From: a virus
Length of the DNA: 33,949 nucleotides
Reading direction: 5' to 3' (one strand)
Virus record (IMG/VR): IMGVR_UViG_3300046748_000066
How positions within the stretch are numbered: the first letter of the stretch is position 1; the number at the start of each line of letters is the position of its first letter. Both the position numbers and the translations under genes were made by a program. Of this stretch, positions 4,008 to 19,300 are shown piece by piece. The notes beneath the pieces were generated by a model that was not told the DNA's origin, did not search any database, and worked only from the letters and a program-made list of their open reading frames with translations.

Positions 4008-4325
4008 ATGAAGAGAGAGAAAACAAATACCATGAGTATGTACGACCTCATGGCAGCTCAAACTGTAACTAAACAATACCTGAATTACACAACAGAATGT
4101 GTAGCACAGGTAATAGCTCAGTTACCAGAAGAACATAAGATGACATCATTAGATGCTAAGTGTGACTTGTCATACAATCAAGGCAAACGTGATGCGTTTA
4201 TGGAATTGTTTAGTATCTTAGACAATCAAGAACAAACCATATCAAATCTTATTGATGATCGTTCTGATGAAATGCACCAGCAATCAGAAGATGAGAAAGT
4301 TATGGCTGAAGAAAATGAGTTGTGA
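4008..4325 (+). CDS. Hypothetical acidic protein (105 aa)
   Basis: I prefer the internal ATG at 4008 (ggagataaatATG) to the track start at 3927, which has no RBS. Confidence 0.6.
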   Translation: MKREKTNTMSMYDLMAAQTVTKQYLNYTTECVAQVIAQLPEEHKMTSLDAKCDLSYNQGKRDAFMELFSILDNQEQTISNLIDDRSDEMHQQSEDEKVMAEENEL

Positions 4326-6173: not shown

Positions 6174-6186
6174 TATAATTATAGAA
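6157..6186 (+). promoter_or_regulatory. Conserved promoter-like block, copy B: AAGTAGAA-N5-GTAGTATAAT-N-ATAGAA
   Basis: 26 of 30 positions are identical to 3858..3887. TATAAT at 6174..6179, 25 nt upstream of ATG 6204. Confidence 0.4.
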
Positions 6187-6203
6187 CAAACATAGGAGAT
6201 ATT

Positions 6204-7010
6204 ATGTTATCACAACAACAAATAGAAGATAGAAAGCGTGGCATTGGTGGATCTGATTCAACAAGAATCATGACCGGTGACTGGCAATCTGTTTGGGAAG
6301 AGAAGACAGGTCGTAAAGAACCTGATGATCTCTCTCAAAACATAGCAGTACAAGTAGGTGTTGCAACAGAAAAAGTTAACCTAGATTTTTTAGGTTATGA
6401 GTTAGATGAAAAAATAATTAGAGATGTTGATGTTACAAGTAGTGGTGTACATCCTGATTGGTTGATGTCACATCTAGATGGTATGACATATGAAAAAAAG
6501 ATACCAATAGAATGTAAGCATACGTATCATGGCAATCGTTTTGATGTATTGGCTGAACGTAACTACTGGCAGATGCAACACTACATGATGCACACTGGTG
6601 CAACATGGATGTATCTCTCAGCTATATTTGGTAACAATAAATGGGAACACGGTGTAATAGATAGTGACATGGGAGACCAACAACGATTGTTCAAAGTCCT
6701 TAGTTACATCTGGGAATGTGTTGTCAATGATGAACAACCAATAGATGTAGAGTTACCGGTAACACCAAAGCCAGATGACATTGCTATCAATGGATTAAAG
6801 TCAATAGACTTGAGTAAAGATGACGAGTTCTTAGAACAAGTAAAGCTATACAAAGCTACCAAACCATTTGTTATACAACACAATGAACATAAAGATAATT
6901 TAAAAAGCAGATTAGATAAGACCAAACATCGTAAAGTATATGGTGCAGGTATATCTATATCATTAAACAAACGTGGAATCATTAGTCTAAAGGAGGACAA
7001 AGATGAGTAA
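6204..7010 (+). CDS. YqaJ-type (lambda Exo-like, PD-(D/E)XK) recombination exonuclease
   Basis: The N-terminal RKRGIGGSDSTRIMTG (YqaJ hallmark GIGxSD) and HLDGMTYEKKIPIECKHT (D...E-x-K catalytic motif). Followed by annealing-protein and SSB genes. Confidence 0.75.
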   Translation: MLSQQQIEDRKRGIGGSDSTRIMTGDWQSVWEEKTGRKEPDDLSQNIAVQVGVATEKVNLDFLGYELDEKIIRDVDVTSSGVHPDWLMSHLDGMTYEKKIPIECKHTYHGNRFDVLAERNYWQMQHYMMHTGATWMYLSAIFGNNKWEHGVIDSDMGDQQRLFKVLSYIWECVVNDEQPIDVELPVTPKPDDIAINGLKSIDLSKDDEFLEQVKLYKATKPFVIQHNEHKDNLKSRLDKTKHRKVYGAGISISLNKRGIISLKEDKDE

Positions 7011-7821: not shown

Positions 7822-8043
7822 ATGACACCGATACAACTAGGCGTACTCAAATACATTGAACAGTATATAGATACTACGGGTATAAGCCCGACCTATCGTG
7901 AGATAAAGGAGGGGTGTAACCTCTCCGCTATCTCTCATGCTCACAAGATTGTTGATGTCTTGATTAAGAATGCACATCTTGATATGGATCCAGCTGGTCA
8001 TAGAAAGATAAGGCGTAAGGCAGACAGCGACAAACATGAGTAG
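7822..8043 (+). CDS. Stand-alone LexA-type winged-helix DNA-binding domain protein (73 aa, no S24 peptidase domain)
   Basis: MTPIQLGVLKYIEQYIDTTGISPTYREIKEGCNLSAISHAHKIVDVLIKNAHL aligns by eye with the LexA N-terminus (LTxRQxEVFxxIxxxIxxTGxPPTxxEIAxxLGxxSxxAAxxHLxxLxxKG). The ORF ends soon after the domain. Confidence 0.6.
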   Translation: MTPIQLGVLKYIEQYIDTTGISPTYREIKEGCNLSAISHAHKIVDVLIKNAHLDMDPAGHRKIRRKADSDKHE

Positions 8044-8335
8044 CAACAAGAAAGAAAAAAAAATAATGAACTACATGGCACAAGTATATGGCTGTATAGT
8101 TTGCAAAAGAGAGGGACATGGATTTACAGAAGCAAGCATTCATCACCTGCGAACAGGCATGGGAATGGGACAGCGAAGTAAATTATTCATCCCACTTTGC
8201 TGGAATCACCATCAACATCCTGAGCATGGTATACATGGTGGTACCAAATCATGGCAGAAGAAACATGGTACTGAGCTAGAACTATTAGAATATTATAATC
8301 TTACTAGCGAAGAGGGTTATCAGATCGAGCCTTAA
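8036..8335 (+). CDS. Ref-like (RecA-dependent nuclease family) HNH endonuclease
   Basis: GCIVCK...ASIHHLRTGMGMGQRSKLFIPLCWNHHQ...GIHGG fits the C-x2-C ... HH-x-R ... G-x-G-x-K/R ... IPLC-x2-HH pattern of P1 Ref/DUF968-type nucleases. The start is uncertain (8036, 8066 or 8075). Confidence 0.55.
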   Translation: MSSNKKEKKIMNYMAQVYGCIVCKREGHGFTEASIHHLRTGMGMGQRSKLFIPLCWNHHQHPEHGIHGGTKSWQKKHGTELELLEYYNLTSEEGYQIEP

Positions 8336-8528
8336 TCTCTTCTACTTTAGCTTTGAGTACAGCTATCTCTGCCTTATTAATAGCTATGTCTTGTTCCAGA
8401 GGTTTAATATCTGGAGCAGACTTAGCTTCTAACACATCAATCCTCTGTATTAATTGACCTTGAAATACAAAGAGAGAGCCAATAGTTATCACTAAACCTA
8501 CAATCCCTGCTATCGTTTTAATATCCAC
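8304..8528 (-). CDS. Small N-terminal-TM plus coiled-coil protein (74 aa), i-spanin-like topology
   Basis: GTG start 5 nt after AAGGAGG. IAGIVGLVITIGSLFVF is a TM segment and the remainder is heptad-like (IAINKAEIAVLKAKVEEIKA). It is the last gene of the minus arm, and its 3' end overlaps the 3' end of the plus arm by 32 nt. Confidence 0.6.
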   Translation of the reverse strand: MDIKTIAGIVGLVITIGSLFVFQGQLIQRIDVLEAKSAPDIKPLEQDIAINKAEIAVLKAKVEEIKARSDNPLR

Positions 8529-9987
8529 GTATCCTCCTTAGATGTTCTTCAGCCCTTATCCTATTGTCAGTAGCTTCTTGAACTTTCTTTTGATATTGCT
8601 GAACAGGATCTTGATTTCCATACGTAACTTCAGCATATATATTTCTAGTATCAATATAGTTTCTGGTCTCATTGTAATTACCACCGTCTATGTTTAATTG
8701 ATTTCTAAATATATTTTGATTTACATTACTATAAGTGTCAACAGATGTTGAACTCGCTATAGCTTTAGCTACCAACAGATTAACTTGTTCTAGCTTTTGG
8801 GTAACGCTACCTGTAGTTTGTTCAACTTGTCTAGTTATATCTGCTATCGAAACATCGATACTATCTTGTTCCACAATTGCAACATCTTCATCTTCAGTGA
8901 CAGTGGTTGCACTTTCTGATGTGGCTTCCACTCCTGTGTCTTCGCTTGATTCAATTGCGACTGGACTTTCTTCACCTCCAGATTCTTCTCTGACCTCTGC
9001 GACTTCTGTGATTTCTTCAGGCTCAGGGTTTCGTTCGACAGGTCTAGCTTCTTCGGTACCTCCTGCAACTTCTTCGATTCCTGATTCTTCTCTGACTTCA
9101 ACAACTTCTTCTTCAACTTCGATCTCTGTTGCGACTTCCTCGATGATCTCTTGATTACCATAACTTATCTCCAATTCTTCAGGTGGTTCTAATGTAAATA
9201 CATTGATGACACCTGTGTTTATTTCTTCTATTGCTACCTCTTGAATGTAAACCTCACTAAACGTTTCAATAATTAATTCAGGTTCTTCAAAGGGTATAAA
9301 TTCTTCTACTATAAATTCTTCGTATATAAATAATTCTTCTGGGCTAACCATAGTTAATACTTCTTCTATCTCTTCAAATGCTGTAGCTATAATTTCTGTC
9401 TCAGCTACGCTTAATACTGTTGGATCATATGTCATTGTGACCGATATATTATCTACATTGGGACCACCAAGATTGTCTGGTGCATTAGCATCTTCACCAC
9501 TTAAATATAGATTGCCCACCCTACTGCCCGTCCCTGTATATGTAAGACTATCTGAATAATTAACACCATCGATACCTGTTGTATTACTGCGTGTTTGCGT
9601 AGTTGTAGCAAGTACATTGCCAAGTTCATCTTTAATCTGTATGCGTACAGTAAAGCTATCAGCACCGCCTCTGTTAGGCGCCCATCCACCTACACCACCC
9701 TCACCATTCTGCCACTCTGTTGTGCTGTTGAGAGTAATACCATTGTTTAACATAGGTTGAGTAATAGTATCTGAATATAAATTAAAATCTTGTTCAATAA
9801 ATCCTATGTCTCCAAACTCAAAGTCGTGTCCTCCGGGACAACAATCACCTATAACTTCTGCATCACCTGATGTAGTCCAACCTGTTGATCCATTGTCAAA
9901 CGTACCATTGATAATTAGGTTGCCAGTTACATCTGCATATGCTAGATTAAGAGAGAGCAATACAACAACAAAGCTACTTAACTTCAT
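8518..9987 (-). CDS. Secreted hyper-acidic protein: Sec signal peptide, jelly-roll/CBM-like N-domain, ~200-aa Glu-rich region, C-terminal domain
   Basis: MKLSSFVVVLLSLNLAYA/DVT is a signal peptide. NLIINGTFDNGSTGWT is typical of CBM4/9-like or galactose-binding-like domains. The central region is dominated by E/V/I, with the repeat VREESGIEEV / VREESGGEES. I prefer ATG 9987 to GTG 9990. Confidence 0.7.
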   Translation of the reverse strand: MKLSSFVVVLLSLNLAYADVTGNLIINGTFDNGSTGWTTSGDAEVIGDCCPGGHDFEFGDIGFIEQDFNLYSDTITQPMLNNGITLNSTTEWQNGEGGVGGWAPNRGGADSFTVRIQIKDELGNVLATTTQTRSNTTGIDGVNYSDSLTYTGTGSRVGNLYLSGEDANAPDNLGGPNVDNISVTMTYDPTVLSVAETEIIATAFEEIEEVLTMVSPEELFIYEEFIVEEFIPFEEPELIIETFSEVYIQEVAIEEINTGVINVFTLEPPEELEISYGNQEIIEEVATEIEVEEEVVEVREESGIEEVAGGTEEARPVERNPEPEEITEVAEVREESGGEESPVAIESSEDTGVEATSESATTVTEDEDVAIVEQDSIDVSIADITRQVEQTTGSVTQKLEQVNLLVAKAIASSTSVDTYSNVNQNIFRNQLNIDGGNYNETRNYIDTRNIYAEVTYGNQDPVQQYQKKVQEATDNRIRAEEHLRRIRGY

Positions 9988-10597
9988 CACTAATCATCCC
10001 AGAGGGAATAGGTTTACCATTCCATTCATCAGCTTCAGGCTGATAAAATCCACCAATCTCTGTCCATCTAGCTTTAGCTTTTTCACCAATCAACCCATCA
10101 ATTGGGCAAGGCGTCCCTGCATCCCACATTGATTGCCATACATTTTTATCTTGGCACATCAAAGATATTGCTGCTACTTTCATACCAAGCTTGGCTAGTA
10201 CTGAGGTAGCTTTTCTACGTTCACACTCATCATCTCTCATATAGCTACCAAATGAGCCTGAGAAGCCGATTACGGTTACTCCTGCTGCAAGTGGTATAAC
10301 ACAGCTGTCTTGTCCATAAACGCTCATACTGGGCGCTGAGGAGCCATTGACTGCTGTCTCTTGATTTGTACTATTGTTAGTTGTATTGGATGTAGTAGAG
10401 TTTGAGCTGGATCCTGACTGATAGGTAGTGCTGGATTCGTACCCACCAGTAATAGCAGTATTACTGCCTGCGTTATTGGATTGGGTATTGGTTGTAGCGC
10501 CTGAGCTAGTAACATCAGCTATACTAGATTCTATACTTAACAATGCAATGAGTATTGCAAGTACAACAAGTGCTGGCTTTAGCTTCGACACTTCCAT
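9974..10597 (-). CDS. Secreted protein: signal peptide, S/T/N-rich linker, Cys-containing C-terminal domain (207 aa)
   Basis: MEVSKLKPALVVLAILIALLSIESSIA/DVT is a signal peptide. A ~70-aa S/T/N-rich tract follows, then a domain with five Cys. No catalytic motif recognised. Confidence 0.65.
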   Translation of the reverse strand: MEVSKLKPALVVLAILIALLSIESSIADVTSSGATTNTQSNNAGSNTAITGGYESSTTYQSGSSSNSTTSNTTNNSTNQETAVNGSSAPSMSVYGQDSCVIPLAAGVTVIGFSGSFGSYMRDDECERRKATSVLAKLGMKVAAISLMCQDKNVWQSMWDAGTPCPIDGLIGEKAKARWTEIGGFYQPEADEWNGKPIPSGMISDEVK

Positions 10598-10827
10598 TTT
10601 CTCAACGCCAATGCTTTACGCGTTGGTCTTCCTTTACTATCTTTCATTGGTCCCTTAACTCCTGACATTCTGGCACAAAAACTTTTTCGCCTAGCTGCAG
10701 CTTTAGATCCTTTAGGTGCTTTGCCTGTAACAGGAGGTTTAAGTTTACTTCCATCCTTACGTGCAAAATGCGCTCTACCTGCTGCATTCAATCCACCACT
10801 AGGGTTTTGATATTTCTTAGCTACCAT
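10579..10827 (-). CDS. Small basic protein (82 aa), GGLNAAGR...RRKSFCARM family
   Basis: TAATG-coupled start. NPSGGLNAAGRAHFARKDGSKLKPPVTG...AARRKSFCARMSG resembles a small-protein family I recall from marine phages and giant viruses (annotated only as a DUF). Confidence 0.65.
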   Translation of the reverse strand: MVAKKYQNPSGGLNAAGRAHFARKDGSKLKPPVTGKAPKGSKAAARRKSFCARMSGVKGPMKDSKGRPTRKALALRKWKCRS

Positions 10828-11069
10828 TATGTTTTAGCATATCCAGGTTTGCCCTTAGATGAATTATCTTTTGATTGTTTACGTTTGACTGCTGCTCTCT
10901 TTTGAGAACTAGACATCTTACTTGCTTTAGCTGATGGCACACACTTAGGATACTTGCCACGTTTCTCACCTTTACTTCTGCCACAAGGAGGAAAGCTACC
11001 ATCAGAGCGAGGATTAGCTATGTCTACCCAACGTTCGCCTACCCATGCTTTGAGACCTTTCTTAGCCAT
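10827..11069 (-). CDS. Small basic protein (80 aa), ERWVDI...PCGRS...KYPKCVP family
   Basis: TAATG-coupled at both ends. WVGERWVDIANPRSDGSFPPCGRSKGEKRGKYPKCVPSAKASKMS is a recurrent small viral motif of unknown function. Confidence 0.65.
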   Translation of the reverse strand: MAKKGLKAWVGERWVDIANPRSDGSFPPCGRSKGEKRGKYPKCVPSAKASKMSSSQKRAAVKRKQSKDNSSKGKPGYAKT

Positions 11070-11203
11070 TATTTTTTCTTTTTACCACCGGGCTTGATTC
11101 TGCCAGAGCAAACGCCAGAGGCATACATGTTTGCGTATGCAGATGGATACTTCTTGAACTTTCTTTTAGCTGCCGCTTTACCTTTTGCACATAACTTTGC
11201 CAT
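11069..11203 (-). CDS. Tiny basic protein, 44 aa (below the ORF-track cutoff), KYPSAYANxYASxxC motif
   Basis: Hand translation: MAKLCAKGKAAAKRKFKKYPSAYANMYASGVCSGRIKPGGKKKK. AAGGAGA lies 5 nt upstream of the ATG. Its stop overlaps the next ATG (TAATG), and its start is 1 nt after the upstream stop. Confidence 0.6.
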   Translation of the reverse strand: MAKLCAKGKAAAKRKFKKYPSAYANMYASGVCSGRIKPGGKKKK

Positions 11204-11204
11204 A

Positions 11205-11639
11205 TTATCTCCTTACTAATGAACCACCAAAATACAATCCTATTATGGAACTTACCACATGGGTATCTAATGGTGTGATTACTAATCCTGACATCGGTTT
11301 CCATTGCGTCATGTCTACGTCTGATGCAAATATCCACCAACCCTCTTGTATTGTTTCTGTATATCCTACGTAAATAGGCATTGATGGATCTATAAATGGT
11401 GCAAGTTTTGGTATAACCAGTATAGATACTACAGCTATCAGGGCTATCCAACGTCTGGTATTCTTGGTAAATGAATCAGTTACCTCTCTAGCTTTGTCTA
11501 CTTGTTCTGCTGCAAATTCAGCTCGTTGCATAAACATCTTTTGTTTATCAGCTTCAGCTTGAGCTTTTTGTGCCATGATAGATAGGACACCACCTAGTAC
11601 TGTACTAGCTAACATGCTTAATAATTCCATAGGTATCAT
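11205..11639 (-). CDS. Holin-like membrane protein (144 aa, about 3 hydrophobic segments)
   Basis: I prefer ATG 11639 (an ATGA overlap with the upstream small ORF) to the track start at 11687. It has an N-terminal TM (LLSMLASTVLGGVLSIMA), an amphipathic AQKAQAEADKQKMF helix, a TM at WIALIAVVSILVIP, and a C-terminal VVSSIIGLYFGGSLVRR. The layout recalls 3-TM holins of the GTA-holin type. This is from memory only. Confidence 0.4.
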   Translation of the reverse strand: MIPMELLSMLASTVLGGVLSIMAQKAQAEADKQKMFMQRAEFAAEQVDKAREVTDSFTKNTRRWIALIAVVSILVIPKLAPFIDPSMPIYVGYTETIQEGWWIFASDVDMTQWKPMSGLVITPLDTHVVSSIIGLYFGGSLVRR

Positions 11640-11800
11640 GAGTTGTAGAAATAGCCTCCTACTATTGCAGCTATACCACCTAGCCATGCTATAAATGTAA
11701 TAGCACCTTTGCCTTTGTTGATAGCTTCTTCGAGCTTAGTAATCCTGTCTTCTAAAGATACAATCTTATCTAGTATCTGTGAGTTAGTTACTGTTCTCAT
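11636..11800 (-). CDS. Small coiled-coil plus C-terminal-TM protein, 54 aa (below the ORF-track cutoff)
   Basis: Hand translation: MRTVTNSQILDKIVSLEDRITKLEEAINKGKGAITFIAWLGGIAAIVGGYFYNS. ATGA overlaps at both ends (with the desaturase B stop and the holin-like start). Confidence 0.55.
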   Translation of the reverse strand: MRTVTNSQILDKIVSLEDRITKLEEAINKGKGAITFIAWLGGIAAIVGGYFYNS

Positions 11801-12543
11801 TTAAAAATCCTTTCTATAAAAAATGCAGGAGGATCTAACTCCCACCATTTGTGTCCATGTCTATAGTCTTTTGACTTAGTATGATGATAGTTATGCCAAC
11901 CCTCACCCCAGCTAATCAATGATGTCAATGGACTGTTTACTGCTGTGCAATGTGGTTTAGATTCTACTACTTTATATCCAAAATGTTTACTATGTGGTAT
12001 GACACCAAAAGCTCCAGCCACTATATAAATACAGGCACATGGAAATGAAAATAAAAATAGTCCTAACATAGGATTAATTGTGTACAAAATTAACACATAT
12101 GTAAATAGTAAAGCCCAATAATTCCTAGTGATAAACATATAATCTTTGTCTTTGAGTATGTCTTTGACCATGACTTTGGGTACAGTTATATGGTCATATA
12201 ATGTAAGCCATGCTCTTAGATAACCTATTCTTTCAGGTGATTGGTTGTCATCTGTAGGATGTCCAGAGTATCTATGATGATATCTGTGCTGTGCTGTCCA
12301 TGATAATGGACTACCAAATGCTGATATAACTGTAAGATATTTGAGTATCTTATCTTTAATTGGTGTAGTTTCAAATGATCTATGGCTCATATATCTATGT
12401 ATAGCTATGTTAGTTGAGAATATATTTACAAATGCCCATCCAATTATCCCATAGATTATATACTCAGGATAAGTAACACATGCCCAGACAGATATTAATA
12501 CATTAGTAAGTGCTAGTAGTTGTATCTTGATAGCGTGATTCAT
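11797..12543 (-). CDS. Membrane fatty-acid desaturase, Delta9 (stearoyl-CoA desaturase-like) type, paralogue B (248 aa)
   Basis: His boxes are in canonical order: HRYMSHRSF, QHRYHHRYSG and SWGEGWHNYHHT (compare HRLWSHRSY, HRxHH and GEGxHNYHHxFP). Hydrophobic segments flank them. ATG 12543 forms an ATGA overlap with paralogue A. Confidence 0.8.
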   Translation of the reverse strand: MNHAIKIQLLALTNVLISVWACVTYPEYIIYGIIGWAFVNIFSTNIAIHRYMSHRSFETTPIKDKILKYLTVISAFGSPLSWTAQHRYHHRYSGHPTDDNQSPERIGYLRAWLTLYDHITVPKVMVKDILKDKDYMFITRNYWALLFTYVLILYTINPMLGLFLFSFPCACIYIVAGAFGVIPHSKHFGYKVVESKPHCTAVNSPLTSLISWGEGWHNYHHTKSKDYRHGHKWWELDPPAFFIERIFK

Positions 12544-13223
12544 GCCCAACCTAATTTTTTAACTAACCAAACATATGGATCAAACCAACAATGTGTAAGC
12601 TGTGGTTTGATATGATGTTGTTTGTGAAATGATTCAGAAAATGCAAATAGGTACATGTAAGGTACGTCTCTTACTTTATCTGTATGACACATAATACCTG
12701 TTACTAACATTACCCAGAACGTAGTCATGGCTACCGCAGTAGCCCATGTAAGAAACCATGCAGTTGGCAGGACTAAGAAAAGAATAGCATTCAACATGTA
12801 AACCAACATTGTTTCATATTTAGTTAAAAATAATTGCCAGTCATTTCTTAGCCTATCTGTTGCCAGACTAATCTTTGTAGGTTGTTCATGTGTCCTAAAT
12901 ATAATGTAGTACCATGTTTTATATTTAGGACTATGAGGATCTTTGTCTGTGTCTGAATGTTTATGATGGTTTCTATGCCATGCACTATACGATATTGGTG
13001 TACCTATCATAGCTGTTAGTGATACTACACTCATTATGTTTTGAAACCATACAGGTGGATTCCAGAGATTATGTGTAGCCCATCTGTGTATAAACAAACT
13101 CATAGTAAATTCTAATAAAAAATAAAAGAGTATGTATGTGTATAGAAGTTGTAGCCAAGATAGTGCTACAAAAGAATATAAAGCTAATCCAAAGTAAACA
13201 ACATATAAAATGGTAAGTGGCAC
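12540..13223 (-). CDS. Membrane fatty-acid desaturase, Delta9 type, paralogue A (227 aa)
   Basis: His boxes are HRWATH, WHRNHHKHSDTDKDPHSP (near-canonical HRxHHxxSDTxxDPH) and FHKQHH. Two TM segments precede box 1. GTG start 1 nt after the upstream stop. Confidence 0.8.
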   Translation of the reverse strand: MPLTILYVVYFGLALYSFVALSWLQLLYTYILFYFLLEFTMSLFIHRWATHNLWNPPVWFQNIMSVVSLTAMIGTPISYSAWHRNHHKHSDTDKDPHSPKYKTWYYIIFRTHEQPTKISLATDRLRNDWQLFLTKYETMLVYMLNAILFLVLPTAWFLTWATAVAMTTFWVMLVTGIMCHTDKVRDVPYMYLFAFSESFHKQHHIKPQLTHCWFDPYVWLVKKLGWA

Positions 13224-13224
13224 A

Positions 13225-13719
13225 TTAGTACTCCCATGTCATAAGTTTTATGTTCTCATTTAAATCTTGTGTTGTAAGACTGCCCAGACATATTCCATCT
13301 GTTGTTGCTTGAGTAAAGTAAGTATCAATTCTGGAATCTTTAATACATTTCAATGCAAACTTACTACCACCTAATGATTGAATCCATGATTTGTTTGCCT
13401 CATGAAATGCAGATGTCCATGTCCACGACTTACTATTATTTATCTTGCCTACTAATGCATCATGCCAAGTATATGTATTGTTTTCATACATTCCATGTAC
13501 ATATAAACAAGGAACATCATCTTTAGAAACAATAACATTGTAACCAAAGTTGCTAGCGTTTATCGTAGTTACTATATGTTGTTTTAGTTCTGTATCTGAT
13601 TTGCTTAAATGTTCTGATGCAACTGTTCCAGATTTTATATCATCTAAACTATCTGCATATATCTGATTAAACGTATCGTCTATTGTAAATTCGTTCATTC
13701 TTGTAAAAGTATAAGACAT
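13225..13719 (-). CDS. Hypothetical protein (164 aa) between tail-fibre genes and desaturases
   Basis: Intact ORF with a TAATG-type junction to the upstream gene. No motif recognised. Confidence 0.65.
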   Translation of the reverse strand: MSYTFTRMNEFTIDDTFNQIYADSLDDIKSGTVASEHLSKSDTELKQHIVTTINASNFGYNVIVSKDDVPCLYVHGMYENNTYTWHDALVGKINNSKSWTWTSAFHEANKSWIQSLGGSKFALKCIKDSRIDTYFTQATTDGICLGSLTTQDLNENIKLMTWEY

Positions 13720-14291
13720 TATGTTTCTACTATTTTAAATCCTGTTGACGCACCAGTATTACCCATTATTGCAGCAGCAGACATAGTTGTATTTGGTGAA
13801 CCTGAAGCTGTACTAGTCCAATGAAAGAATTTAGCTCCTGTTATTCCATGTTGTGATAAACTAGCATCTGCTCTGTTAAACCTTGTTACGTTACCGTTAG
13901 TTCCATTTGTAATTTCAATAAATGTCCAAGCTGTATAAACTGTACTATTTTGTAAGTGAAATCTCGATATGGCCCCATCTACATAACACGCTTGTATTGA
14001 ATTAGATGAGTTAGCAATAGCTGTGCTACCAATACTTCCATAAAAACCAACACCACTACCAACTGTTACACCAACTTCAGTATTTTTGATACCACCAACA
14101 CCTACTGTTATGGTTGTATTAGCGTGTTCAGTACCAGAAGATGTTCCATAAAAATCGGCAGCTAATTGTATTTCACCACTAGCTGGTGCATTACCCTCGC
14201 CATGATATTCTGATAAAGAATGAGGTGCAGAGCCACCAAACTCTGTAGCTATCTCACTGAGTTTTATTTGACCACTACTTTGTAAAGCCAT
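13719..14291 (-). CDS. Tail-fibre-like / receptor-binding accessory protein (190 aa)
   Basis: The N-terminus SGQIKLSEIATEFGGSAPHSLSEYHG...ASGEIQLAADFYG is the ISxSDxxxEFGGSxPxSLSEYY...SGxIxxSDFYG motif recurrent in structural proteins of marine podoviruses. It follows the tail-fibre gene. Confidence 0.55.
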   Translation of the reverse strand: MALQSSGQIKLSEIATEFGGSAPHSLSEYHGEGNAPASGEIQLAADFYGTSSGTEHANTTITVGVGGIKNTEVGVTVGSGVGFYGSIGSTAIANSSNSIQACYVDGAISRFHLQNSTVYTAWTFIEITNGTNGNVTRFNRADASLSQHGITGAKFFHWTSTASGSPNTTMSAAAIMGNTGASTGFKIVET

Positions 14292-16338
14292 CTTTCAATT
14301 CCTTGATTTGATCTTTTAACTCTTTTATACAGTTAATTAAAAGTCCATGAATTGCGTCATACTCTACTGTCTTGTAGGTTTTGCCATCTACTAAATCTAA
14401 TTGTTTTTCTTTTACTGCACAGGGTAAAACCTTTTCTAATTCTTGTGCAATAATACCAGCAGACTTCTGTCCATTGTGTCTTGTAAATGTAACACCTCTG
14501 ACTTCATCAATTTTATCTAGTGCATTAGGTATCATTTCAATATCAGACTTTAATGCAACATCTGATATTGTGGTTGAATATGCAATAACATCTCCATCTG
14601 CATGGAAGTCACCATTATTTTTAATTCTTGCTCGTTCAGCACCATCAAGATAAAATTCAAAAGTTGTTGTGTGAATTTCCATAAAATCATTAGTATCTCG
14701 ACCAATGTGAGTAATGCCATCTCTTAAATCAGATTCAAGACTTATAGTTGTTCCTGATACATCTATGCCAGTACCAGCAGTTACACCTGTTATATAACCT
14801 GAATCATTAGTAAACATACTAATATTTCCTGCTTTGTTGGTAAGCGTTTCTGATGATGAAGCTGTAATAAAAGCTGAATCATTCGTAAACATGCTTACAT
14901 TTCCAGACTTGTTAGTTAATGTTTCTGATGAACTTGCAGTTATATATGAACCAAGATCCGATATATCTGCTTCTACTACAGTAATAGTATTAGATGCAGT
15001 GTTTATTGTTTTATTTGTTAAGGTATCTGTTGATGATGTTGTAAATGTTAAATTAGATGTTAAAGCAAATGTGCCTGTACCACCCGGAATTGTGTGTGTA
15101 TTTATTGTTCCTAAATTTGTTATGTTTTTAGAGTTACCATCAAGATGTCCTCCTAACTGTGGAGTTGTATCTTCAGATACGTTTGAAATACCTCCAGATG
15201 TATTGATAGTTGTAAATGAACTACCTGTATAAACCTTAAGTGAGTTAGATGTAGTGTTAAATATTAAATCTCCAGCATCATTATCAGAACCCGGATCAGA
15301 TGAACCTACTCTATATCTATCTGCAAAATCATTGATTCCAGATATATTGTCTGCAACAGTTGTAACATTAGTTTTTATAGCTTCTAGTGCATTTAAGTCA
15401 GATACAAAGTCTGTTGTTGCAAGACTATTTAAATCTGATACAAAGTCGGATGTTGCTAATAAATTTAAGTCATTAACAATATCTGTAGTTGCTAATGTAT
15501 TAACATCAGATACAAAGTCTGCTGTAACTAATGCCATATCACTTACAAAATCAGAAGTAACTAATGATATATCAGTTGCAAAATCAGATGTAATAAGTGA
15601 TGCCTTACCAGCTACAGTTGTTACATTTGAAGAAATTCCAGCAACTGCGGTTACATCAGAAGCTATGCCTCCAACAGTATTAACATTCGATATAGCTCCA
15701 GCTACTGTGTTTATATTACTTGAGTTACCAGAAACAGATGTAACATTGCTAGCAATACCAGATACAGTAATAACATCACTGGCTATACCAGCAACTGTTG
15801 TTACATCTGTGGTAGCGATTGTTGTTTGAACATCGCCATCACTATCAAATGTAAGCACCTTAGATGCTCTAGTAGCTTTTGCCGGTAATGTTACTGTCGC
15901 TGCAATAGAATCTGTATCTAATAATTTAACTGATCTATCTGACTGTTGGTTAATATCAGCTAATTTTGCAAATACTTTGTCTAAATCTGTGTTAAGTGAG
16001 GTTATATCAAATGTTCCAGATGTTGGAAAATCTGTAGATCGTTCTATCGTAATATCTCTAATAATAGTAATAATGTCCCCAGCAGTAGCTCCACTACCGC
16101 CCAGAGTAATAGTACCCCCAGCCCCAAACTCATAAGCACTATCACTTGCACTAACCGTACCTGAAATGCTGTACTGTGTAGTACTTGACGGAGATGCGTT
16201 ATAAGTGAGTAAAGATGTTCCATTGTATACCTTTATGTCTGTTGTACTAAAAAACTCAAAGGGTATTGCAAACGCTGTCTGGCTACCAGATGCTGTATAC
16301 GTTACTCTAGGAGTATTTTTTGCCGTTAATATAGTCAT
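14275..16338 (-). CDS. Tail fibre/spike with C-terminal intramolecular chaperone (Peptidase_S74) domain
   Basis: A podovirus fibre-type N-terminus (YTASGSQTAFAIPFEF...IKVY...IIRDITIERSTDF...LNTDLDKV). Central 10- and 11-12-residue tandem repeats. The C-terminus YSTTISDVALKSDIE...VRGVTFTR...AGIIAQELEKVLP is typical of the autoproteolytic S74 chaperone. Confidence 0.8.
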   Translation of the reverse strand: MTILTAKNTPRVTYTASGSQTAFAIPFEFFSTTDIKVYNGTSLLTYNASPSSTTQYSISGTVSASDSAYEFGAGGTITLGGSGATAGDIITIIRDITIERSTDFPTSGTFDITSLNTDLDKVFAKLADINQQSDRSVKLLDTDSIAATVTLPAKATRASKVLTFDSDGDVQTTIATTDVTTVAGIASDVITVSGIASNVTSVSGNSSNINTVAGAISNVNTVGGIASDVTAVAGISSNVTTVAGKASLITSDFATDISLVTSDFVSDMALVTADFVSDVNTLATTDIVNDLNLLATSDFVSDLNSLATTDFVSDLNALEAIKTNVTTVADNISGINDFADRYRVGSSDPGSDNDAGDLIFNTTSNSLKVYTGSSFTTINTSGGISNVSEDTTPQLGGHLDGNSKNITNLGTINTHTIPGGTGTFALTSNLTFTTSSTDTLTNKTINTASNTITVVEADISDLGSYITASSSETLTNKSGNVSMFTNDSAFITASSSETLTNKAGNISMFTNDSGYITGVTAGTGIDVSGTTISLESDLRDGITHIGRDTNDFMEIHTTTFEFYLDGAERARIKNNGDFHADGDVIAYSTTISDVALKSDIEMIPNALDKIDEVRGVTFTRHNGQKSAGIIAQELEKVLPCAVKEKQLDLVDGKTYKTVEYDAIHGLLINCIKELKDQIKELKDGFTK
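14788..14937 (-). repeat. 2 x 25-aa tandem repeat in the tail fibre (ASSSETLTNK(S/A)GN(V/I)SMFTNDS(A/G)(F/Y)IT)
   Basis: Read from the translation, residues 468..517. Confidence 0.85.
15379..15798 (-). repeat. In-frame tandem peptide repeats within the tail fibre (7 x 10 aa TVAGIASDVT-like, then 6 x 11-12 aa SDFVSDLNxLAT-like)
   Basis: Read from the translation, residues 181..320. Confidence 0.85.
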
Positions 16339-16364
16339 TTTCTATTACTTTACTAGAAGTTTAT

Positions 16365-19300
16365 CTAATCTTCTAGTACTCCGTTATATACTTTTTTAAA
16401 TGCTCTGTCCCATACAAACCAATTATTGAGAGGAATCATACGTCTTATAGCGTCTCTTTGCTCTTTATCTCCTCCATCTTCAAAAGCATAATATATATCT
16501 AATAAGTTACTACCTGCTGCGCCTACAATTGGTCTAAATGCATCGTGGTCTTTTGGATCACCATAAGGATTATCCATACCAAACATTGGTCTTATACCAT
16601 ATTCTTGACCACTTACTGTTTCTAGCATACTTGGTAAATCACTTAATATTGCACCTACACCTGATTTTTCTACACCTGTAAGTATTTTTTCTTCAAATGG
16701 TTTTTGATACCAAAAGTCTGGTGACTTAAGAAAATCACCCCATATAGCAAAACCTACCATAGCAGAACTACCTTGTAATAAATATTGATCACGACCAGTA
16801 ACTCCAGACATAAGTAACTTTCTATTAGCAGCAATCATCCAAGAGTAGAATTGAAAAGGCAGAGCCATATAAGCATTCTGGAACTTACCTCCTCTATCTG
16901 TTCTAGTAAATCCAAAATATCTTCCTACTGGATTATCAAATGCATCTGCTACTTCATCATTATTAATTCTTACTACACCATACATCATATTTAATTTGTC
17001 GTTAGGTGATGGTGTAATAATTGTTCTTTCAACGTCAGCTTTTACAGCTGCTCTATATACAGATAAAGCTTTAGCACCACCCGGTCTATCTATCCAACGT
17101 CTAGCATTAGGTAAAAACGTACCATCCATTTGTTCGTATGGCATACGACCTATAAGCTTAGCCATCTGCTCATCTATACCATAAGATGCTAATCTAGTTT
17201 TACCAGCTTCATCTAATGATCCTTTGTTAAGTTTTATTACATCTTCTAAGAATCTATGTTGTGATACAAAAGTAGTCATCTGTTTCATTTTAATAGTCCA
17301 CGGGGTAAGCCCGTTCATCCAATACCAGATACCTTGAGTTTTCTGAGCTGGTTGATAAAAATACTTATTAAAAAATCCACCAGTAGCATTTTGTGGTCCC
17401 ATGTTTGCACCATAGTAACGTTCTGCTGCTGACATTTGCTGTGTTAACTCTATCAAAGGATTTATAAACTGAGCATCTTTTGCTATTTTTTGGTACAGTT
17501 TTGGATTTTTCATCATTGGTCGCCATGCTTGTGAGTACACTCTACCAAAACCATGCACCATAATTGGTCTACCCAAGTCAGCTTGAGCTGTAAATACTAC
17601 CTTACCCATAGATGCAAGAGATACAATGTTACGTATAAATCCAGCAGCCTGCTTATTCATATAGGCAGGATCTTGGGTATTAAAAGTTCCATATAATTTA
17701 TCTTTAGAATCTTGTATAGCATTTAAAACTTCATTCATTGCTGTAACGTCTTTTTTTGATTCTACTGTATTTAAAATTAACTCTCTTTGTAATCTGTATG
17801 TATGATTCATCATATGTCTATCACCAAATCTTTTGGTAATTTCTATAGCTGTAGTCATTCTATTTTTATATATTTTTAAAACATCAGACACATTTGTTTC
17901 TATAAATGGAATACCATCTGGTGACATGTTAATTGTTTTCATTAGTTCTTTGTTTTCTATATCTAGGTTTCTAGACATCAATCCTCTTACACCAGCTTTA
18001 GCTTGACCTTTTCCTATTGTTCCAAGTCCTAATATTCCATCAGTGTCCATAGATGCTGACTGATCTAGGATTCTTTCATGTGTAAAATCAACCATATCTT
18101 CTATTTGTTTAGCTGTTTTGCCACCATGTCTTGGATGTGTTTTGTAATAATTTCTTAATATATTTTTAAATGGTTCTTCATGTTTAAGTATTTCTTCTCT
18201 ATTCCAAAACCTACTATAATATTCTGCATTTAAATCTAAAGGTTTTATATCTTCATCTAAAAGTAATTTTTCTTGTTCTTTTAAAAATTTTAGATCATCG
18301 CCTAATGAATCTAATAACTTTTCTAGTTCATTTTTTTTTATTGGTGTTATGTTTGGGTTTCTTAAGTCTGCCTGTACTTGTCTTTTTATTTTTTCTTTTT
18401 CTTTTAACTGTCTTAATACAGTTCTTTGGTTAGCAAACATACCTAAATCATTGGCTTCTTCGCCTATTTCTTTAAAATACCTACGTGTTGCTAATGCTGA
18501 TTCTCTTATTGTTCTTGGTAATTTAGGATCATTTAATATTTTGTCATCCATTACAGCCCTAGATACTTCATGTTGAAATTCATTCCATGTGTTTTGTGGT
18601 CTATCTGGTAACTCTTCTTTTAGACCAAACATTTTATTTCGCATCTTAGCCATGTTAGTAGCCCAACTATGTTTAGTTTCTGCCAACCAGTCAGCTCCTT
18701 TATGTGTTGCTGCGGTTCTATTACCACCAAACATATACTTACTCTCTTTGCTACCTGTCCTATATTCAACATATTTTTCATTTAATGTGTTTAAGACTTT
18801 TTGTAATTCTGCTTCTCTAGTAGTTTGTACAGTTAAATGTACAGATGGGTTCATTCTTATACCTGCTTTATGACCACGTGCAACTATTCCAAAGTCACCA
18901 GTAATTTCAAATATATCTCTAGCAAGATAAGATGCAATAGCAGGATGTTTTTGAAACTTATGTACAACTTTACCTGTGTCAGTATATTTATCTAACCATG
19001 TTAAAAACTGTTTCATGACTGGTATTTCACCTACATCACTAACAAAACTGCCTTGTTGTTTCTTAGAATCTTTTACTACTGCTTTAGTTACTCTCTGGTC
19101 ATAAGCTTCTAATGATTCACCTTTTTTTCTTTTTTCTACCCATTGGTTTTTTTTCCATAATTCTTTTTTAATTTTAAAGTTTACGTATTGATCATAAGTT
19201 TTCATTAGCTTAGCAACGTTAGGAGATACGCCCGGAAGTTGTATGCCATCTTTTTTATATGCATTAAATTCTTGTTTTAATCTAACTTCATCAACAAGTA

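What the first reader, a model, noticed from the sequence alone, without database searches (positions are those of the whole stretch)
11797..13223. Diverged tandem pair of compact Delta9-type membrane fatty-acid desaturases in the late operon of a ~34-kb podovirus-like phage
Two adjacent minus-strand ORFs each carry the three ordered histidine boxes of membrane di-iron desaturases. The sequence context is that of the stearoyl-CoA-desaturase-like (Delta9) branch.
- Paralogue A (12540..13223): HRWATH ... WHRNHHKHSDTDKDPHSP ... FHKQHH.
- Paralogue B (11797..12543): HRYMSHRSF ... QHRYHHRYSGHPTDDNQSP ... GEGWHNYHHT.
Both have hydrophobic segments before box 1 and between boxes 2 and 3. They are short (227 and 248 aa) and clearly diverged from each other: B has lost the DPH after box 2, and A has a degenerate box-3 context. 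They are joined by an ATGA overlap. They sit between tail-fibre genes and a holin-like gene, in a genome with no other metabolic gene and no electron-donor gene. Lipid desaturases are known as auxiliary genes in cyanophages. A two-paralogue cassette in a minimal podovirus genome is, as far as I know, not a described arrangement, and that claim is inference needing a database search. Two different enzymes suggest two substrates or regiospecificities, or a heteromeric enzyme.
Basis: partly seen in the sequence, partly recalled or inferred. Interest (0 to 1): 0.8.

Follow-up and report, generated by a model that had tools for sequence, protein, structure and literature searches.

The report
Paired lipid desaturase genes in SAR11 phage
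A small virus that probably infects SAR11, the ocean's most abundant bacterium, carries two different stripped-down fat-desaturating enzymes side by side, and related marine viruses carry two to four such genes in every case that could be judged, which suggests they remodel host membrane fats in more than one step.

Summary
ORFs 12540-13223(-) (A, 227 aa) and 11797-12543(-) (B, 248 aa) overlap by ATGA. Both pass the Pfam FA_desaturase threshold and give confident AlphaFold models (pLDDT 92-94). Both models match stearoyl-CoA desaturase 1 (TM 0.74-0.77) and keep all nine SCD1 histidine ligands. Both genes are under purifying selection (dN/dS 0.16 and 0.12).

The window is a circularly closed 33.8-kb T7-like podovirus. 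Its closest cultured relative is Pelagibacter phage Hodr, which lacks the genes.

The pair is not a one-off. IMG/VR holds 566 contigs with A-like genes and 261 with B-like genes. Among 77 distinct arrays, all 51 that lie inside their contig have 2-4 paralogues from five families that are 23-31% identical to each other. None has a single gene. The same A-B pair (about 75% aa identity) also sits in Mosig-like SAR11 myoviruses, extended to four genes.

The cassette is accessory: about 10% of phages sharing the adjacent late genes carry it, always as a pair.

The most likely function is host-powered, non-redundant SCD-like desaturases that remodel host acyl lipids late in infection. Regiospecificity, substrates and a possible heteromer remain untested.

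I rate it a new variant of a known kind (phage lipid-desaturase auxiliary genes).

The parts
12540..13223 (-). desA: 227-aa compact SCD-like membrane desaturase (paralogue family A), GTG start
   Evidence: ORF. Pfam FA_desaturase 39.1 bits against GA 29.7. AF2 pLDDT 92.5, pTM 0.89. Foldseek to SCD1, TM 0.74-0.76. dN/dS 0.16.
11797..12543 (-). desB: 248-aa compact SCD-like membrane desaturase (paralogue family B), ATG start
   Evidence: ORF. Pfam 59 bits. phmmer to SCD1 4ymk, E 2.5e-11 across the whole core. AF2 pLDDT 93.7, pTM 0.90. Foldseek to SCD1, TM 0.77. dN/dS 0.12.
12540..12543 (-). ATGA stop/start overlap joining desA and desB
   Evidence: Read directly from the sequence. The same A-then-B order recurs on the related viral loci.
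13071..13088 (-). desA His box 1 (H46-R-W-A-T-H51)
   Evidence: Invariant in family A. Coordinates computed from the ORF start.
12963..12977 (-). desA His box 2 (H83-R-N-H86-H87), followed by SDTDKDPHSP
   Evidence: Invariant in family A, and the DPH is retained.
12684..12686 (-). desA ninth His (H180, end of TM4). The Asn four residues upstream in SCD1 is Gly here.
   Evidence: H is invariant. G in 45 of 51 family members, N in 6.
12612..12626 (-). desA His box 3 (H200-K-Q-H203-H204)
   Evidence: Invariant in family A.
12382..12399 (-). desB His box 1 (H49-R-Y-M-S-H54)
   Evidence: Invariant in family B.
12274..12288 (-). desB His box 2 (H86-R-Y-H89-H90), followed by DNQSP in place of DPHSP
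11992..11994 (-). desB ninth His (H184). The SCD1 Asn position is Gly.
   Evidence: H is invariant in 59 of 59. G 47, A 9, I 3 at the Asn position.
11881..11895 (-). desB His box 3 (H217-N-Y-H220-H221, within GEGWHNYHH)
13225..13719 (-). g164: unknown 164-aa soluble ORF abutting desA. It co-occurs with the pair in podovirus contigs. It is context and may be part of the cassette.
   Evidence: No Pfam, PHROG or PADLOC hit. Present upstream of desA in podovirus loci. Absent, apart from one weak match (L159, 25%), from 55 relatives that lack the pair.
11636..11800 (-). g54: 54-aa ORF with one C-terminal hydrophobic segment, overlapping desB by 4 nt. Context only; a lysis role is unproven.
   Evidence: Conserved next to g160 in relatives with and without the cassette.
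11205..11687 (-). g160: 160-aa ORF with two hydrophobic segments (phrog_38283, unknown function). It is the conserved downstream anchor of the cargo slot.
   Evidence: At least 589 IMG/VR contigs carry it.
14275..16338 (-). Tail fibre (687 aa, Peptidase_S74-type C-terminus). It is the upstream boundary of the variable fibre-to-g54 interval.
   Evidence: PHROG tail-fibre families. Pfam PF13884 on the identical gene in L001.

Best explanation
desA and desB are two functional, non-redundant, O2-dependent membrane di-iron enzymes of the stearoyl-CoA-desaturase-like ('first desaturase') family, each reduced to the bare catalytic core of four transmembrane helices plus the His-box cap. They are translated together from the late structural and putative-lysis gene string of a SAR11 (Pelagibacter) podovirus.

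The proposed mechanism is as follows.
1. The proteins insert into the host inner membrane.
2. They draw electrons from host carriers, since the phage encodes none.
3. They introduce double bonds into acyl chains of host membrane lipids during late infection.
4. The two enzymes have different substrate pockets, so they act on different targets. These could be the sn-1 versus sn-2 chain, different chain lengths, different head groups, or different carbon positions.

Different targets would explain why selection keeps at least two paralogues together. The pair is a mobile accessory cassette exchanged between unrelated phages that infect the same host.

Shown here: family membership, fold, ligand conservation, purifying selection, conserved pairing and mobility. 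Inferred: desaturation as the chemistry, membrane acyl lipids as the substrate, host electron supply, late timing and distinct specificities.
For: **Family and fold**
- Both proteins pass the Pfam PF00487 gathering score.
- SCD1 is the only significant PDB match by sequence for B (E 2.5e-11).
- SCD1 is the only significant PDB match by fold for both proteins (TM 0.77 and 0.74-0.76). The models are confident (pLDDT 93.7 and 92.5).

**Active site**
- All nine SCD1 histidine ligands are invariant in 51 A and 59 B sequences, and also in paralogue families C, D and E.
- The box pattern is HX4H / HX2HH / HX2HH. Box 1 and box 2 are 37 residues apart, as in SCD1.
- B's motifs (HRxxSHRSF, GEGWHNYHH) match the four conserved domains listed for cyanobacterial Delta9 DesC in PMC4390868.

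**Both genes are kept in working order**
- dN/dS is 0.16 for A and 0.12 for B.

**Pairing**
- Of 77 distinct arrays, 72 have at least two genes. The five singletons all sit at a contig edge. All 51 internal arrays have 2-4 genes.
- Among phages sharing the neighbouring g54-g160 genes, 55 lack the cassette and 5 carry it. Those 5 always carry both genes.

**Different pockets**
- Each family has its own conserved residues at the TM2 positions that, by register from box 1, line the end of the SCD1 substrate tunnel. A has Y/W plus an invariably acidic E/D. B has A/G plus I/V/L.

**Mobility and host**
- Window A and B group with the A and B of a Mosig-like pelagimyovirus array (bootstrap 100 and 84, about 75% aa identity).
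- The nearest cultured podovirus is Pelagibacter phage Hodr (portal 81%).

**Precedents**
- Single cyanophage desaturases have been shown to be Delta9 and C16-specific (PMC5776448).
- DesC1 and DesC2 are paralogues specific for sn-1 and sn-2 respectively (PMC4390868).
Against: - No activity, substrate, regiospecificity or expression data exist for any member of these five families.
- The Asn that positions the water ligand of the second iron in SCD1 is Gly in both A and B. B also lacks the conserved DPH. The chemistry may therefore differ from canonical Delta9 desaturation.
- Neither protein comes near the NCBIfam DesA equivalog cut-off (19.7 and 49.7 bits against 400).
- No electron donor is encoded in the window. 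I could not establish which host carrier would serve, or whether SAR11 has a desaturase of its own.
- If the enzymes were fully independent, some phages with only one would be expected. None was seen, and that fits a cooperative or heteromeric system better.
- In pelagimyoviruses, related genes sit among hydroxylases, radical-SAM enzymes and aminotransferases rather than lipid genes.
- The tunnel-residue mapping relies on ungapped register and on my memory of the SCD1 structure papers. It does not rest on measured coordinates.
Confidence: 0.6

Rival explanations
1. A and B, and C and D where present, form an obligate hetero-oligomeric desaturase. This could be one active assembly, or a channelled complex performing sequential desaturations on the same acyl chain. 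Neither protein would work alone.
For: - No evaluable array has a single gene (0 of 51 internal arrays).
- Presence and absence are always joint.
- The ATGA overlap favours coupled, roughly equimolar translation.
- A 700-aa ORF fuses two complete SCD-like domains (P0169).
- From my own recollection, not from a paper read here: plant FAD2/FAD3 desaturases are reported to form heterodimers that channel substrate. A search showed only that papers combining those terms exist.
Against: - Partner identity is plastic. B is found with A, with E, or with a diverged B-like copy, and A-E-B also occurs.
- A and B alleles are shuffled between contigs. The Spearman correlation of their identities to the window is 0.35, and some loci have B about 70% identical with A about 40%.
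- Every paralogue keeps a full set of metal ligands, so none looks like a mere scaffold.
- P0169 is a singleton on one 3-kb contig.
- Cultured Mosig has a single, A-related gene.
- No multimer prediction could be run.
Confidence: 0.2
2. These are desaturase-fold enzymes with a different chemistry or a different substrate. Examples would be hydroxylation, or desaturation of a non-phospholipid hydrophobic molecule such as lipid A or LPS acyl chains, ornithine lipids or glycolipids, or a secondary metabolite. They would serve surface or envelope modification rather than bulk membrane fluidity.
For: - The second-sphere Asn is replaced by Gly in A and B.
- Family A has an invariant buried acidic residue in TM2 at the predicted tunnel end, which is odd for a methyl-terminated chain.
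- A has a sub-threshold FA_hydroxylase hit (18.5 bits).
- In Mosig and other large pelagiphage contigs, the relatives lie beside Asp/Arg hydroxylases, aminotransferases, carbamoyltransferase, radical-SAM enzymes, an NADPH-FMN reductase and tail-fibre genes.
- In the window, the pair sits in the hypervariable tail-fibre-distal slot.
Against: - The best and only strong structural and sequence match is SCD1. AlkB is far weaker (TM 0.29-0.44).
- B's box contexts are those of Delta9 DesC/SCD enzymes.
- The carotenoid-ketolase-type first box (HX3H, from my own knowledge) is not present.
- The FA_hydroxylase score is below its threshold.
- Neighbourhood in phage genomes is weak evidence of shared pathway.
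Confidence: 0.15
3. One copy is a redundant duplicate that is decaying, or the block is host DNA joined to the phage by misassembly.
For: A scores much lower than B against Pfam and SCD1. It also has an unusual box-3 context.
Against: - A is under purifying selection (dN/dS 0.16) and all nine His are invariant in 51 sequences.
- A's model is confident.
- The identical A protein lies in the same gene order on 8 contigs from different samples.
- The fibre-g190-g164-A-B-g54-g160 synteny recurs on many IMG/VR contigs.
- No cellular genome in the scan of 185,579 species has a relative above 34% identity (that scan is pattern-limited).
- G+C content is continuous with the flanks.
Confidence: 0.02

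Closest known systems
Cyanophage vFAD-I / vFAD-II (DesC-like Delta9 acyl-lipid desaturases; Roitman et al. 2018, PMC5776448)
   Same: Both are phage-encoded membrane desaturases of the Delta9/SCD-like family carried as auxiliary genes by abundant marine phages. Both have three His boxes and rely on host electron supply. The vFADs have been shown experimentally to make Delta9 C16:1.
   Different: - The vFADs are described as one vFAD gene per contig, of one of two genotypes, in T4-like cyanomyoviruses. They group with the picocyanobacterial DesC types while sharing under 70% protein identity.
- The genes here are in SAR11 phages, both podo- and myovirus.
- They form virus-specific families with no cellular relative above 34% identity in the scan.
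- They are bare-core proteins of 227-250 aa.
- They occur in arrays of 2-4 paralogues in every evaluable case.
- I did not compare them directly with vFAD sequences, which were not available to me.
Mammalian stearoyl-CoA desaturase 1 (PDB 4ZYO, 4YMK, 6WF2)
   Same: - Same fold (TM 0.74-0.77).
- Same nine His ligands.
- Same HX4H / HX2HH / HX2HH pattern and the same box 1 to box 2 spacing.
   Different: - The phage proteins lack about 65 N-terminal and about 40 C-terminal residues of the crystallised chain.
- The water-holding Asn is Gly.
- B lacks DPH.
- Sequence identity is only 16-23%.
- The acyl carrier (CoA or lipid) and the electron donor (no cytochrome b5 system in bacteria) are unknown.
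Cyanobacterial DesC1/DesC2 paralogue pair (sn-1 and sn-2 specific Delta9 desaturases; PMC4390868)
   Same: Two diverged Delta9-family paralogues coexist because each handles a different position on the glycerolipid. This is the simplest model for why a phage would keep two.
   Different: - I know of no report that the DesC paralogues form an overlapping tandem cassette (own knowledge; not checked here).
- They retain the NSxxH Asn (HFTWFVNSATH).
- The specificities of the phage proteins are untested.
Desaturase genes annotated in pelagimyophages (Mosig EXVC030M 'putative FA_desaturase domain protein'; freshwater PMP 'stearoyl-CoA desaturase', PMC7029224)
   Same: - The host group is SAR11 or its freshwater relatives.
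- They are compact proteins of the same family (Mosig 216 aa, Pfam 44 bits).
- Mosig groups with family A (bootstrap 76).
   Different: - They are only mentioned or annotated as single genes.
- Identity to the window proteins is 26-30%.
- In the papers I could search, no tandem arrays, podovirus carriers or functional analysis are described.
A0A6J5LCH2 'OLE1 fatty-acid desaturase' of an uncultured Caudovirales phage (BFVD)
   Same: It is a compact (233 aa) phage desaturase with the same fold (TM 0.69-0.74). This shows that compact phage desaturases are already in databases.
   Different: It is 21% identical to B, carries only an automatic annotation, and its gene context was not examined.

Membership tests
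Membrane di-iron fatty-acid desaturase superfamily (Pfam PF00487) | Profile score above the curated gathering threshold | tested here: met
   A 39.1 bits and B 59.0 bits against 29.7. Families C, D, B' and the L080 member of E, plus Mosig, also pass. The L007 member of E does not.
Membrane di-iron fatty-acid desaturase superfamily (Pfam PF00487) | Three ordered His boxes supplying eight His ligands | tested here: met
   A has H46/H51, H83/H86/H87 and H200/H203/H204. B has H49/H54, H86/H89/H90 and H217/H220/H221. All are invariant in 51 and 59 sequences.
Membrane di-iron fatty-acid desaturase superfamily (Pfam PF00487) | Four transmembrane helices in two hairpins flanking the His-box domain | tested here: met
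   The AF2 helices and the hydropathy segments lie before box 1 and between boxes 2 and 3. Sidedness in the membrane was not tested.
Membrane di-iron fatty-acid desaturase superfamily (Pfam PF00487) | Binds two iron ions and consumes O2 and two electrons per double bond | not testable with these tools
   This needs purified protein or in-vivo assays.
SCD-like / Delta9 'first desaturase' branch (SCD1, Ole1, DesC, Pseudomonas DesA) | Closest solved structure and closest sequence in the PDB is SCD1, over the whole core | tested here: met
   Foldseek gives B TM 0.77 (E 5e-7) and A TM 0.74-0.76 (E 7.5e-4), with the next hit (AlkB) not significant. phmmer gives B E 2.5e-11 but A only 0.067.
SCD-like / Delta9 'first desaturase' branch (SCD1, Ole1, DesC, Pseudomonas DesA) | HX4H first box (HRxxxH) and box-3 context GEGxHNxHH | tested here: met
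   B has HRYMSH and GEGWHNYHH. A has HRWATH, but its box-3 context is SESFHKQHH, so the His residues are kept and the context is altered.
SCD-like / Delta9 'first desaturase' branch (SCD1, Ole1, DesC, Pseudomonas DesA) | Ninth His in TM4 within the NxxxH motif, where the Asn holds the water ligand of the second iron (own knowledge of the SCD1 structures) | tested here: not met
   The His is invariant. The Asn is Gly in A (45 of 51) and Gly or Ala in B (56 of 59). Families C and D keep the Asn.
SCD-like / Delta9 'first desaturase' branch (SCD1, Ole1, DesC, Pseudomonas DesA) | Conserved D-P-H shortly after box 2 | tested here: inconclusive
   Met in A (DPHSP, 51 of 51). Not met in B (DNQ/DNE in 56 of 59).
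SCD-like / Delta9 'first desaturase' branch (SCD1, Ole1, DesC, Pseudomonas DesA) | Delta9 regiospecificity on C16/C18 acyl chains | not testable with these tools
   Sequence does not predict regiospecificity. From my own knowledge, insect SCD-family members make Delta5 to Delta14 bonds.
NCBIfam NF049918 DesA-family desaturase (equivalog) | Score at or above the curated cut-off of 400 bits | tested here: not met
   A 19.7 bits and B 49.7 bits.
Cyanophage vFAD (Roitman et al. 2018) | One DesC-type gene per contig in T4-like cyanomyoviruses, grouping with picocyanobacterial DesC | tested here: not met
   The context here is SAR11 podovirus and myovirus. Arrays hold 2-4 genes. No cyanobacterial relative was found in the pattern-limited genome scan. 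A direct sequence comparison with vFADs was not possible.
Fatty-acid hydroxylase / sterol desaturase family (Pfam PF04116) | Profile score above the gathering threshold | tested here: not met
   A scores 18.5 bits against 31. B has no hit.
Anti-phage defence / superinfection-exclusion systems (PADLOC-DB) | Match to any defence-system protein model | tested here: not met
   No hit for A, B or the four flanking ORFs.

The most novel reading that the evidence does not exclude
The arrays of 2-4 genes encode a virus-specific, cooperative lipid-modification system: a hetero-oligomeric or sequentially acting set of minimal desaturases. During infection of SAR11 it would produce fatty acids the host cannot make, such as polyunsaturated, non-Delta9 or otherwise unusual acyl chains. 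The invariant buried acidic residue of family A and the Asn-to-Gly change would mark a departure from canonical SCD chemistry. Infected cells of the ocean's most abundant bacterium would then carry a distinctive, measurable lipid signature.
Probability: 0.25. Interest if true: 0.8.

Novelty: new variant of a known kind. Interest (0 to 1): 0.62.

Why it matters
**Ecological reach.** SAR11 and its phages are among the most numerous biological entities in the sea. A widespread cassette that rewrites membrane acyl chains in infected cells would affect several things:
- marine lipid pools
- the interpretation of lipid biomarkers
- the physiology of infected cells (fluidity, cold and oxygen adaptation, lysis timing)

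**A cue from the rule 'never one, always two to four'.** That pattern holds across unrelated phage morphotypes. It suggests the enzymes divide labour or work together, which has not been reported for phage desaturases.

**Structural value.** At 227-250 aa these are close to the minimal SCD fold. They are attractive for structural and mechanistic work on how membrane desaturases choose substrate and position.

**Ready-made controls.** Natural presence/absence pairs exist, such as this phage against Hodr or L123-type relatives.

Tried and rejected
- **Near-identical DNA search against cultured phages.** It gave only a 131-bp hit, so there is no close cultured genome. Identification came from protein searches instead.
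- **NCBIfam and PHROGs.** NCBIfam gave only sub-threshold DesA hits. PHROGs gave only an unnamed family.
- **PADLOC.** Nothing was found, so a defence or exclusion role has no support.
- **Promoter and terminator scan of 8000-17000.** Counts were at or below chance, so the operon structure rests only on co-orientation and overlapping stops and starts.
- **Hodr.** It was checked with family HMMs and has no desaturase.
- **Carotenoid ketolase (CrtW-like) reading.** I considered it because of the similar size. I rejected it because the first box is HX4H and SCD1 is the only strong match.
- **Host capture or chimera.** Rejected.
- **g164 as electron carrier.** There is no supporting feature: no family hit, only three Cys and no hydrophobic segment. 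It is also absent from the myovirus arrays.
- **Fusion protein P0169 as Rosetta-stone evidence.** It turned out to be a singleton on a 3-kb contig, so it is kept only as a weak lead.
- **Deep phylogeny.** The NJ tree resolves each family (99-100% bootstrap) but not the order of duplications or the cellular source.
- **Literature searches.** Searches for tandem or podoviral desaturases and for Hodr found nothing relevant. Whether SAR11 has its own desaturase could not be settled.
- **Metal-site geometry.** It could not be measured, because model coordinates are not exposed.
Full report
**1. The observation**

- desA is 12540..13223 (227 aa). It starts at a GTG one nucleotide after the stop of the upstream ORF.
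- desB is 11797..12543 (248 aa). Its ATG overlaps the desA stop as ATGA.
- desB in turn overlaps the next ORF (g54, 11636..11800) by 4 nt.

All the quoted histidine motifs are present. Both proteins pass the curated Pfam FA_desaturase threshold: A 39.1 bits (E 9e-10) and B 59.0 bits (E 8e-16), against a threshold of 29.7. The two are only 23% identical (E 4e-11).

**2. The genome**

PHROG searches identify a T7-like podovirus late module on the minus strand:
- large terminase
- portal
- major head protein
- tail tube B
- a 1295-aa internal virion protein
- a 687-aa tail fibre

The plus strand carries an SSB, a YqaJ-type exonuclease and several DUFs.

The first 30 or more nucleotides recur at 33823. 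The window is therefore a circularly closed assembly of 33,822 bp with a 127-nt overlap.

The closest cultured phage is Pelagibacter phage EXVC031P Hodr (34,238 bp). Its portal is 81%, its terminase 80% and its capsid 81% identical at the amino-acid level. The host is therefore inferred to be SAR11.

No other metabolic or redox gene was detected, although many ORFs have no hit. Hodr has no desaturase, by tblastn or by family HMMs.

**3. What the proteins are**

*Fold and sequence.*
- AlphaFold models built on family alignments are confident: B has pLDDT 93.7 and pTM 0.90, and A has 92.5 and 0.89.
- Against the PDB, the only significant matches are human and mouse stearoyl-CoA desaturase 1. B gives TM 0.77 (E 5e-7) and A gives TM 0.74-0.76 (E 7.5e-4). 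AlkB follows far behind.
- By sequence, B aligns to SCD1 across its whole length (E 2.5e-11). A barely does (E 0.067).
- The alignment shows that the phage proteins lack about 65 N-terminal and about 40 C-terminal residues of the crystallised SCD1 chain. They are the bare core.

*Metal ligands.* I aligned 137 distinct viral sequences with the SCD1 segment recovered. The nine SCD1 ligands are the two His of HRLWSH, the three of HRAHH, the His of NSAAH and the three of HNYHH. All nine are invariant in A (51 sequences), B (59) and three further paralogue families. That these nine are the metal ligands is my own knowledge of the SCD1 structures.

*Three departures are family-wide.*
- The Asn of NSAAH holds the water ligand of the second iron in SCD1 (own knowledge). 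It is Gly in A and Gly or Ala in B, yet Asn in families C and D.
- B has DNQ/DNE where the others have DPH.
- A has SESFHKQHH where B has GEGWHNYHH.

*Selection.* Both genes are under purifying selection. The median dN/dS against the window is 0.16 for A and 0.12 for B.

*Catalogue status.* IMG auto-annotates several relatives as 'stearoyl-CoA desaturase (delta-9 desaturase)'. NCBIfam's DesA equivalog is far from met.

**4. The wider picture, which changes the finding**

*How common the genes are.*
- Scanning IMG/VR with the B alignment found 261 viral contigs.
- Scanning with the A alignment found 566.

*The genes come in arrays.* Family HMMs on six-frame ORFs showed that every B-anchored locus has at least two adjacent same-strand desaturase genes. 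After removing duplicates there are 77 distinct arrays.
- 72 have two or more genes.
- The 5 singletons are all cut by a contig end.
- The 51 arrays that lie inside their contig comprise 39 pairs, 6 triples and 6 quadruples.

*Five paralogue families.* Single-linkage clustering at 40% identity gives families A-E, which are 23-31% identical to one another. Each is monophyletic with 99-100% bootstrap support. The architectures among 90 loci, counted before duplicates were removed, are:

| Architecture | Loci |
|---|---|
| A-B | 56 |
| A-B-C | 10 |
| A-B-C-D | 10 |
| B'-B | 5 |
| E..A | 3 |
| E-B | 3 |
| A-B-D | 2 |
| A-E-B | 1 |

The A-anchored scan added further architectures:
- a B-like gene followed by A and two more genes (L265/L266)
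- a B-like gene, A and one more gene (L272)
- a divergently oriented pair (L262)

.

*The cassette crosses phage types.* The A-B-C-D arrays sit in T4-like genomes, between a UvsW-type helicase and the gp55 late sigma factor. The capsid of that genome is 83.5% identical to that of Pelagibacter myovirus Mosig. Their A and B are about 75% identical to the window's and are its sister sequences in the tree. The same pair has therefore moved between unrelated phage types that share a host.

*The clade is large.* A profile search of 1.84 billion representative proteins found 476 clusters at E no greater than 1e-30. Nearly all of the best 150 are 230-290 aa. Compactness is thus a property of a large, uncharacterised clade.

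*No close cellular relative.* In one genome per 185,579 prokaryotic species, the nearest relatives are no more than 34% identical, and none is from SAR11. That scan is pattern-limited.

**5. The cassette is accessory**

In podovirus contigs the order fibre-g190-g164-A-B-g54-g160 is conserved.

I then anchored on g160, which at least 589 IMG/VR contigs carry. Of the 80 best loci:
- 55 evaluable loci have no desaturase
- 5 have A+B
- 1 has a B truncated by the contig end

. A close relative (L123; g160 95% and g54 94% identical) carries fibre-like ORFs in the same fibre-to-g54 interval.

The pair is therefore cargo in a hypervariable slot, present in roughly a tenth of related phages. Among the five g160-anchored loci where both positions can be judged, both genes are always present. 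The sixth is cut by the contig end.

A and B alleles are also shuffled between contigs. The Spearman correlation of their identities to the window is 0.35, and some loci combine a B about 70% identical with an A about 40% identical.

**6. How it most likely works**

*Shown.* There are two intact SCD-fold di-iron enzymes. Both are maintained by selection. They are co-transcribed and probably translationally coupled with late genes, and they are always kept together.

*Inferred.* They desaturate host membrane acyl chains with electrons from host carriers, and they differ in specificity.

*Support for different pockets.* The relevant positions are 12 and 8 residues before the first box-1 His. By ungapped register these correspond to mouse SCD1 Tyr104 and Ala108, the tunnel-end residues. 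That assignment is from memory of the structure papers. The conserved residues at those positions are:

| Family | 12 before box-1 His | 8 before box-1 His |
|---|---|---|
| A | Y/W | E/D (51 of 51 acidic) |
| B | A/G | I/V/L |
| C | F | V/I/L |
| D | H/Y | G/C |
| E | W | H |

*Precedents.*
- DesC1 and DesC2 are Delta9 paralogues specific for sn-1 and sn-2 (PMC4390868).
- Single cyanophage vFADs have been shown to be Delta9 and C16-specific in yeast ole1 (PMC5776448).

**7. Rivals**

- **Obligate heteromer or channelled complex.** The absence of any single-gene array and the ATGA coupling fit this. Variable partners, allele shuffling and full ligand sets in every paralogue argue against a specific, co-evolved complex. 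The one fusion protein found (P0169) is a singleton on a 3-kb contig.
- **Different substrate or chemistry.**
  - Features of the proteins hint at it: the Asn-to-Gly change and the buried acidic residue of family A.
  - The company kept by relatives in pelagimyoviruses also hints at it. That company includes Asp/Arg hydroxylases, aminotransferases, radical-SAM enzymes and an NADPH-FMN reductase.
  - The only strong similarity, however, is to SCD1.
- **Decay of one copy, or misassembly.** Both are excluded.

**8. Comparison with what is known, and novelty**

- Phage desaturases are known. Cyanomyovirus vFADs have been characterised.
- A stearoyl-CoA desaturase is mentioned in freshwater pelagimyophages.
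- Mosig's gene is annotated.
- A desaturase on a likely pelagiphage scaffold is mentioned in PMC11480375.
- A Nitrospirota virus example exists.
- A 233-aa 'OLE1' protein of an uncultured phage is in BFVD.

I found no description of tandem multi-paralogue arrays, of podoviral carriers, or of these virus-specific families. The library does not cover most subscription journals.

In kind, however, it is a new variant of a known class of auxiliary gene, not a new class.

**9. Verdict**

- Observation: confirmed.
- Interpretation: supported, with the corrections given above.
- Interest: 0.62.
- Confidence in the main mechanism: 0.6.
- Most novel surviving reading: a cooperative viral desaturase system that makes lipids the host cannot make. 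I give it about 25% probability.

Noticed in passing
window 1-127 and 33823-33949: The first 127 nt repeat exactly at the end of the window. It is therefore a circularly closed assembly, and the true genome is 33,822 bp. An overlap of this length looks like a k-mer assembler artefact.
   Followed up: partly
L032:9306-12217 (also L023-L034): Four consecutive desaturase paralogues (A-B-C-D) lie in a Mosig-like T4-type pelagimyovirus, between a UvsW-like helicase and gp55/gp46/gp47 homologues. A 135-aa ORF (phrog_471, 'methylamine utilization') lies directly upstream.
   Followed up: partly
window 13225-13719 (g164): This unknown soluble ORF is found directly upstream of desA in nearly all podovirus contigs that have the pair (36-89% identity). 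Close relatives lacking the pair do not carry it, apart from one weak match (L159, 25%), and neither do the myovirus arrays. It may travel with the cassette.
   Followed up: partly
window 13110-13112 (desA E38); family A alignment: There is an invariably acidic residue (E in 42 and D in 9 of 51 sequences) in the middle of transmembrane helix 2, eight residues before box 1. By register this is the position of the SCD1 tunnel-end residue. It is unusual and unexplained.
   Followed up: partly
L123:2349-4891, compared with window 11800-14291: The interval between the tail fibre and g54 is a hypervariable cargo slot. A close relative (g160 95% identical) carries five fibre-like or unknown ORFs there instead of g190-g164-desA-desB.
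   Followed up: partly
L091:19-828 and 3575-4324; L093:3883-4689 and 5944-6702: The closest 'cellular' relatives (no more than 34% identity) are compact ORFs of about 250 aa on Pseudobdellovibrionaceae MAG contigs. These contigs also carry two desaturase ORFs within about 3 kb. They may themselves be viral or binned in error.
   Followed up: no
L122:5357-8368 (Pelagibacter phage Mosig): Mosig's single desaturase is flanked by an Asp/Arg hydroxylase, an aminotransferase, an NADPH-dependent FMN reductase and a peroxiredoxin. The reductase is a candidate phage-encoded electron source that the podovirus lacks.
   Followed up: no
P0169 (700 aa, Logan contig of 3 kb): This is a single ORF with two complete SCD-like desaturase domains fused head to tail, from a high-G+C organism. 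It is a singleton cluster and could be an assembly or frameshift artefact.
   Followed up: partly
window 10579-11203: Three small, very basic ORFs lie here: 82 aa (DUF6321), 80 aa and 44 aa, all rich in K and R. They coincide with a local G+C rise to 0.425. They are followed by a 207-aa ORF (9974-10597) with an N-terminal hydrophobic segment and a Ser/Thr/Asn-rich stretch. Their functions are unknown.
   Followed up: no
window, whole: Pfam and PHROGs recognised no DNA polymerase, primase or RNA polymerase among the ORFs tested. On the early strand only an SSB, a YqaJ-type exonuclease and DUFs were found. Two large ORFs (8518-9990, 490 aa; 32565-33944, 459 aa) have no hit.
   Followed up: no
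L007:6173-6958: This family-E member scores 137 bits with my family-B HMM and keeps all nine His. Yet it has no Pfam FA_desaturase hit at E no greater than 0.01, so Pfam-based annotation under-counts these genes.
   Followed up: partly
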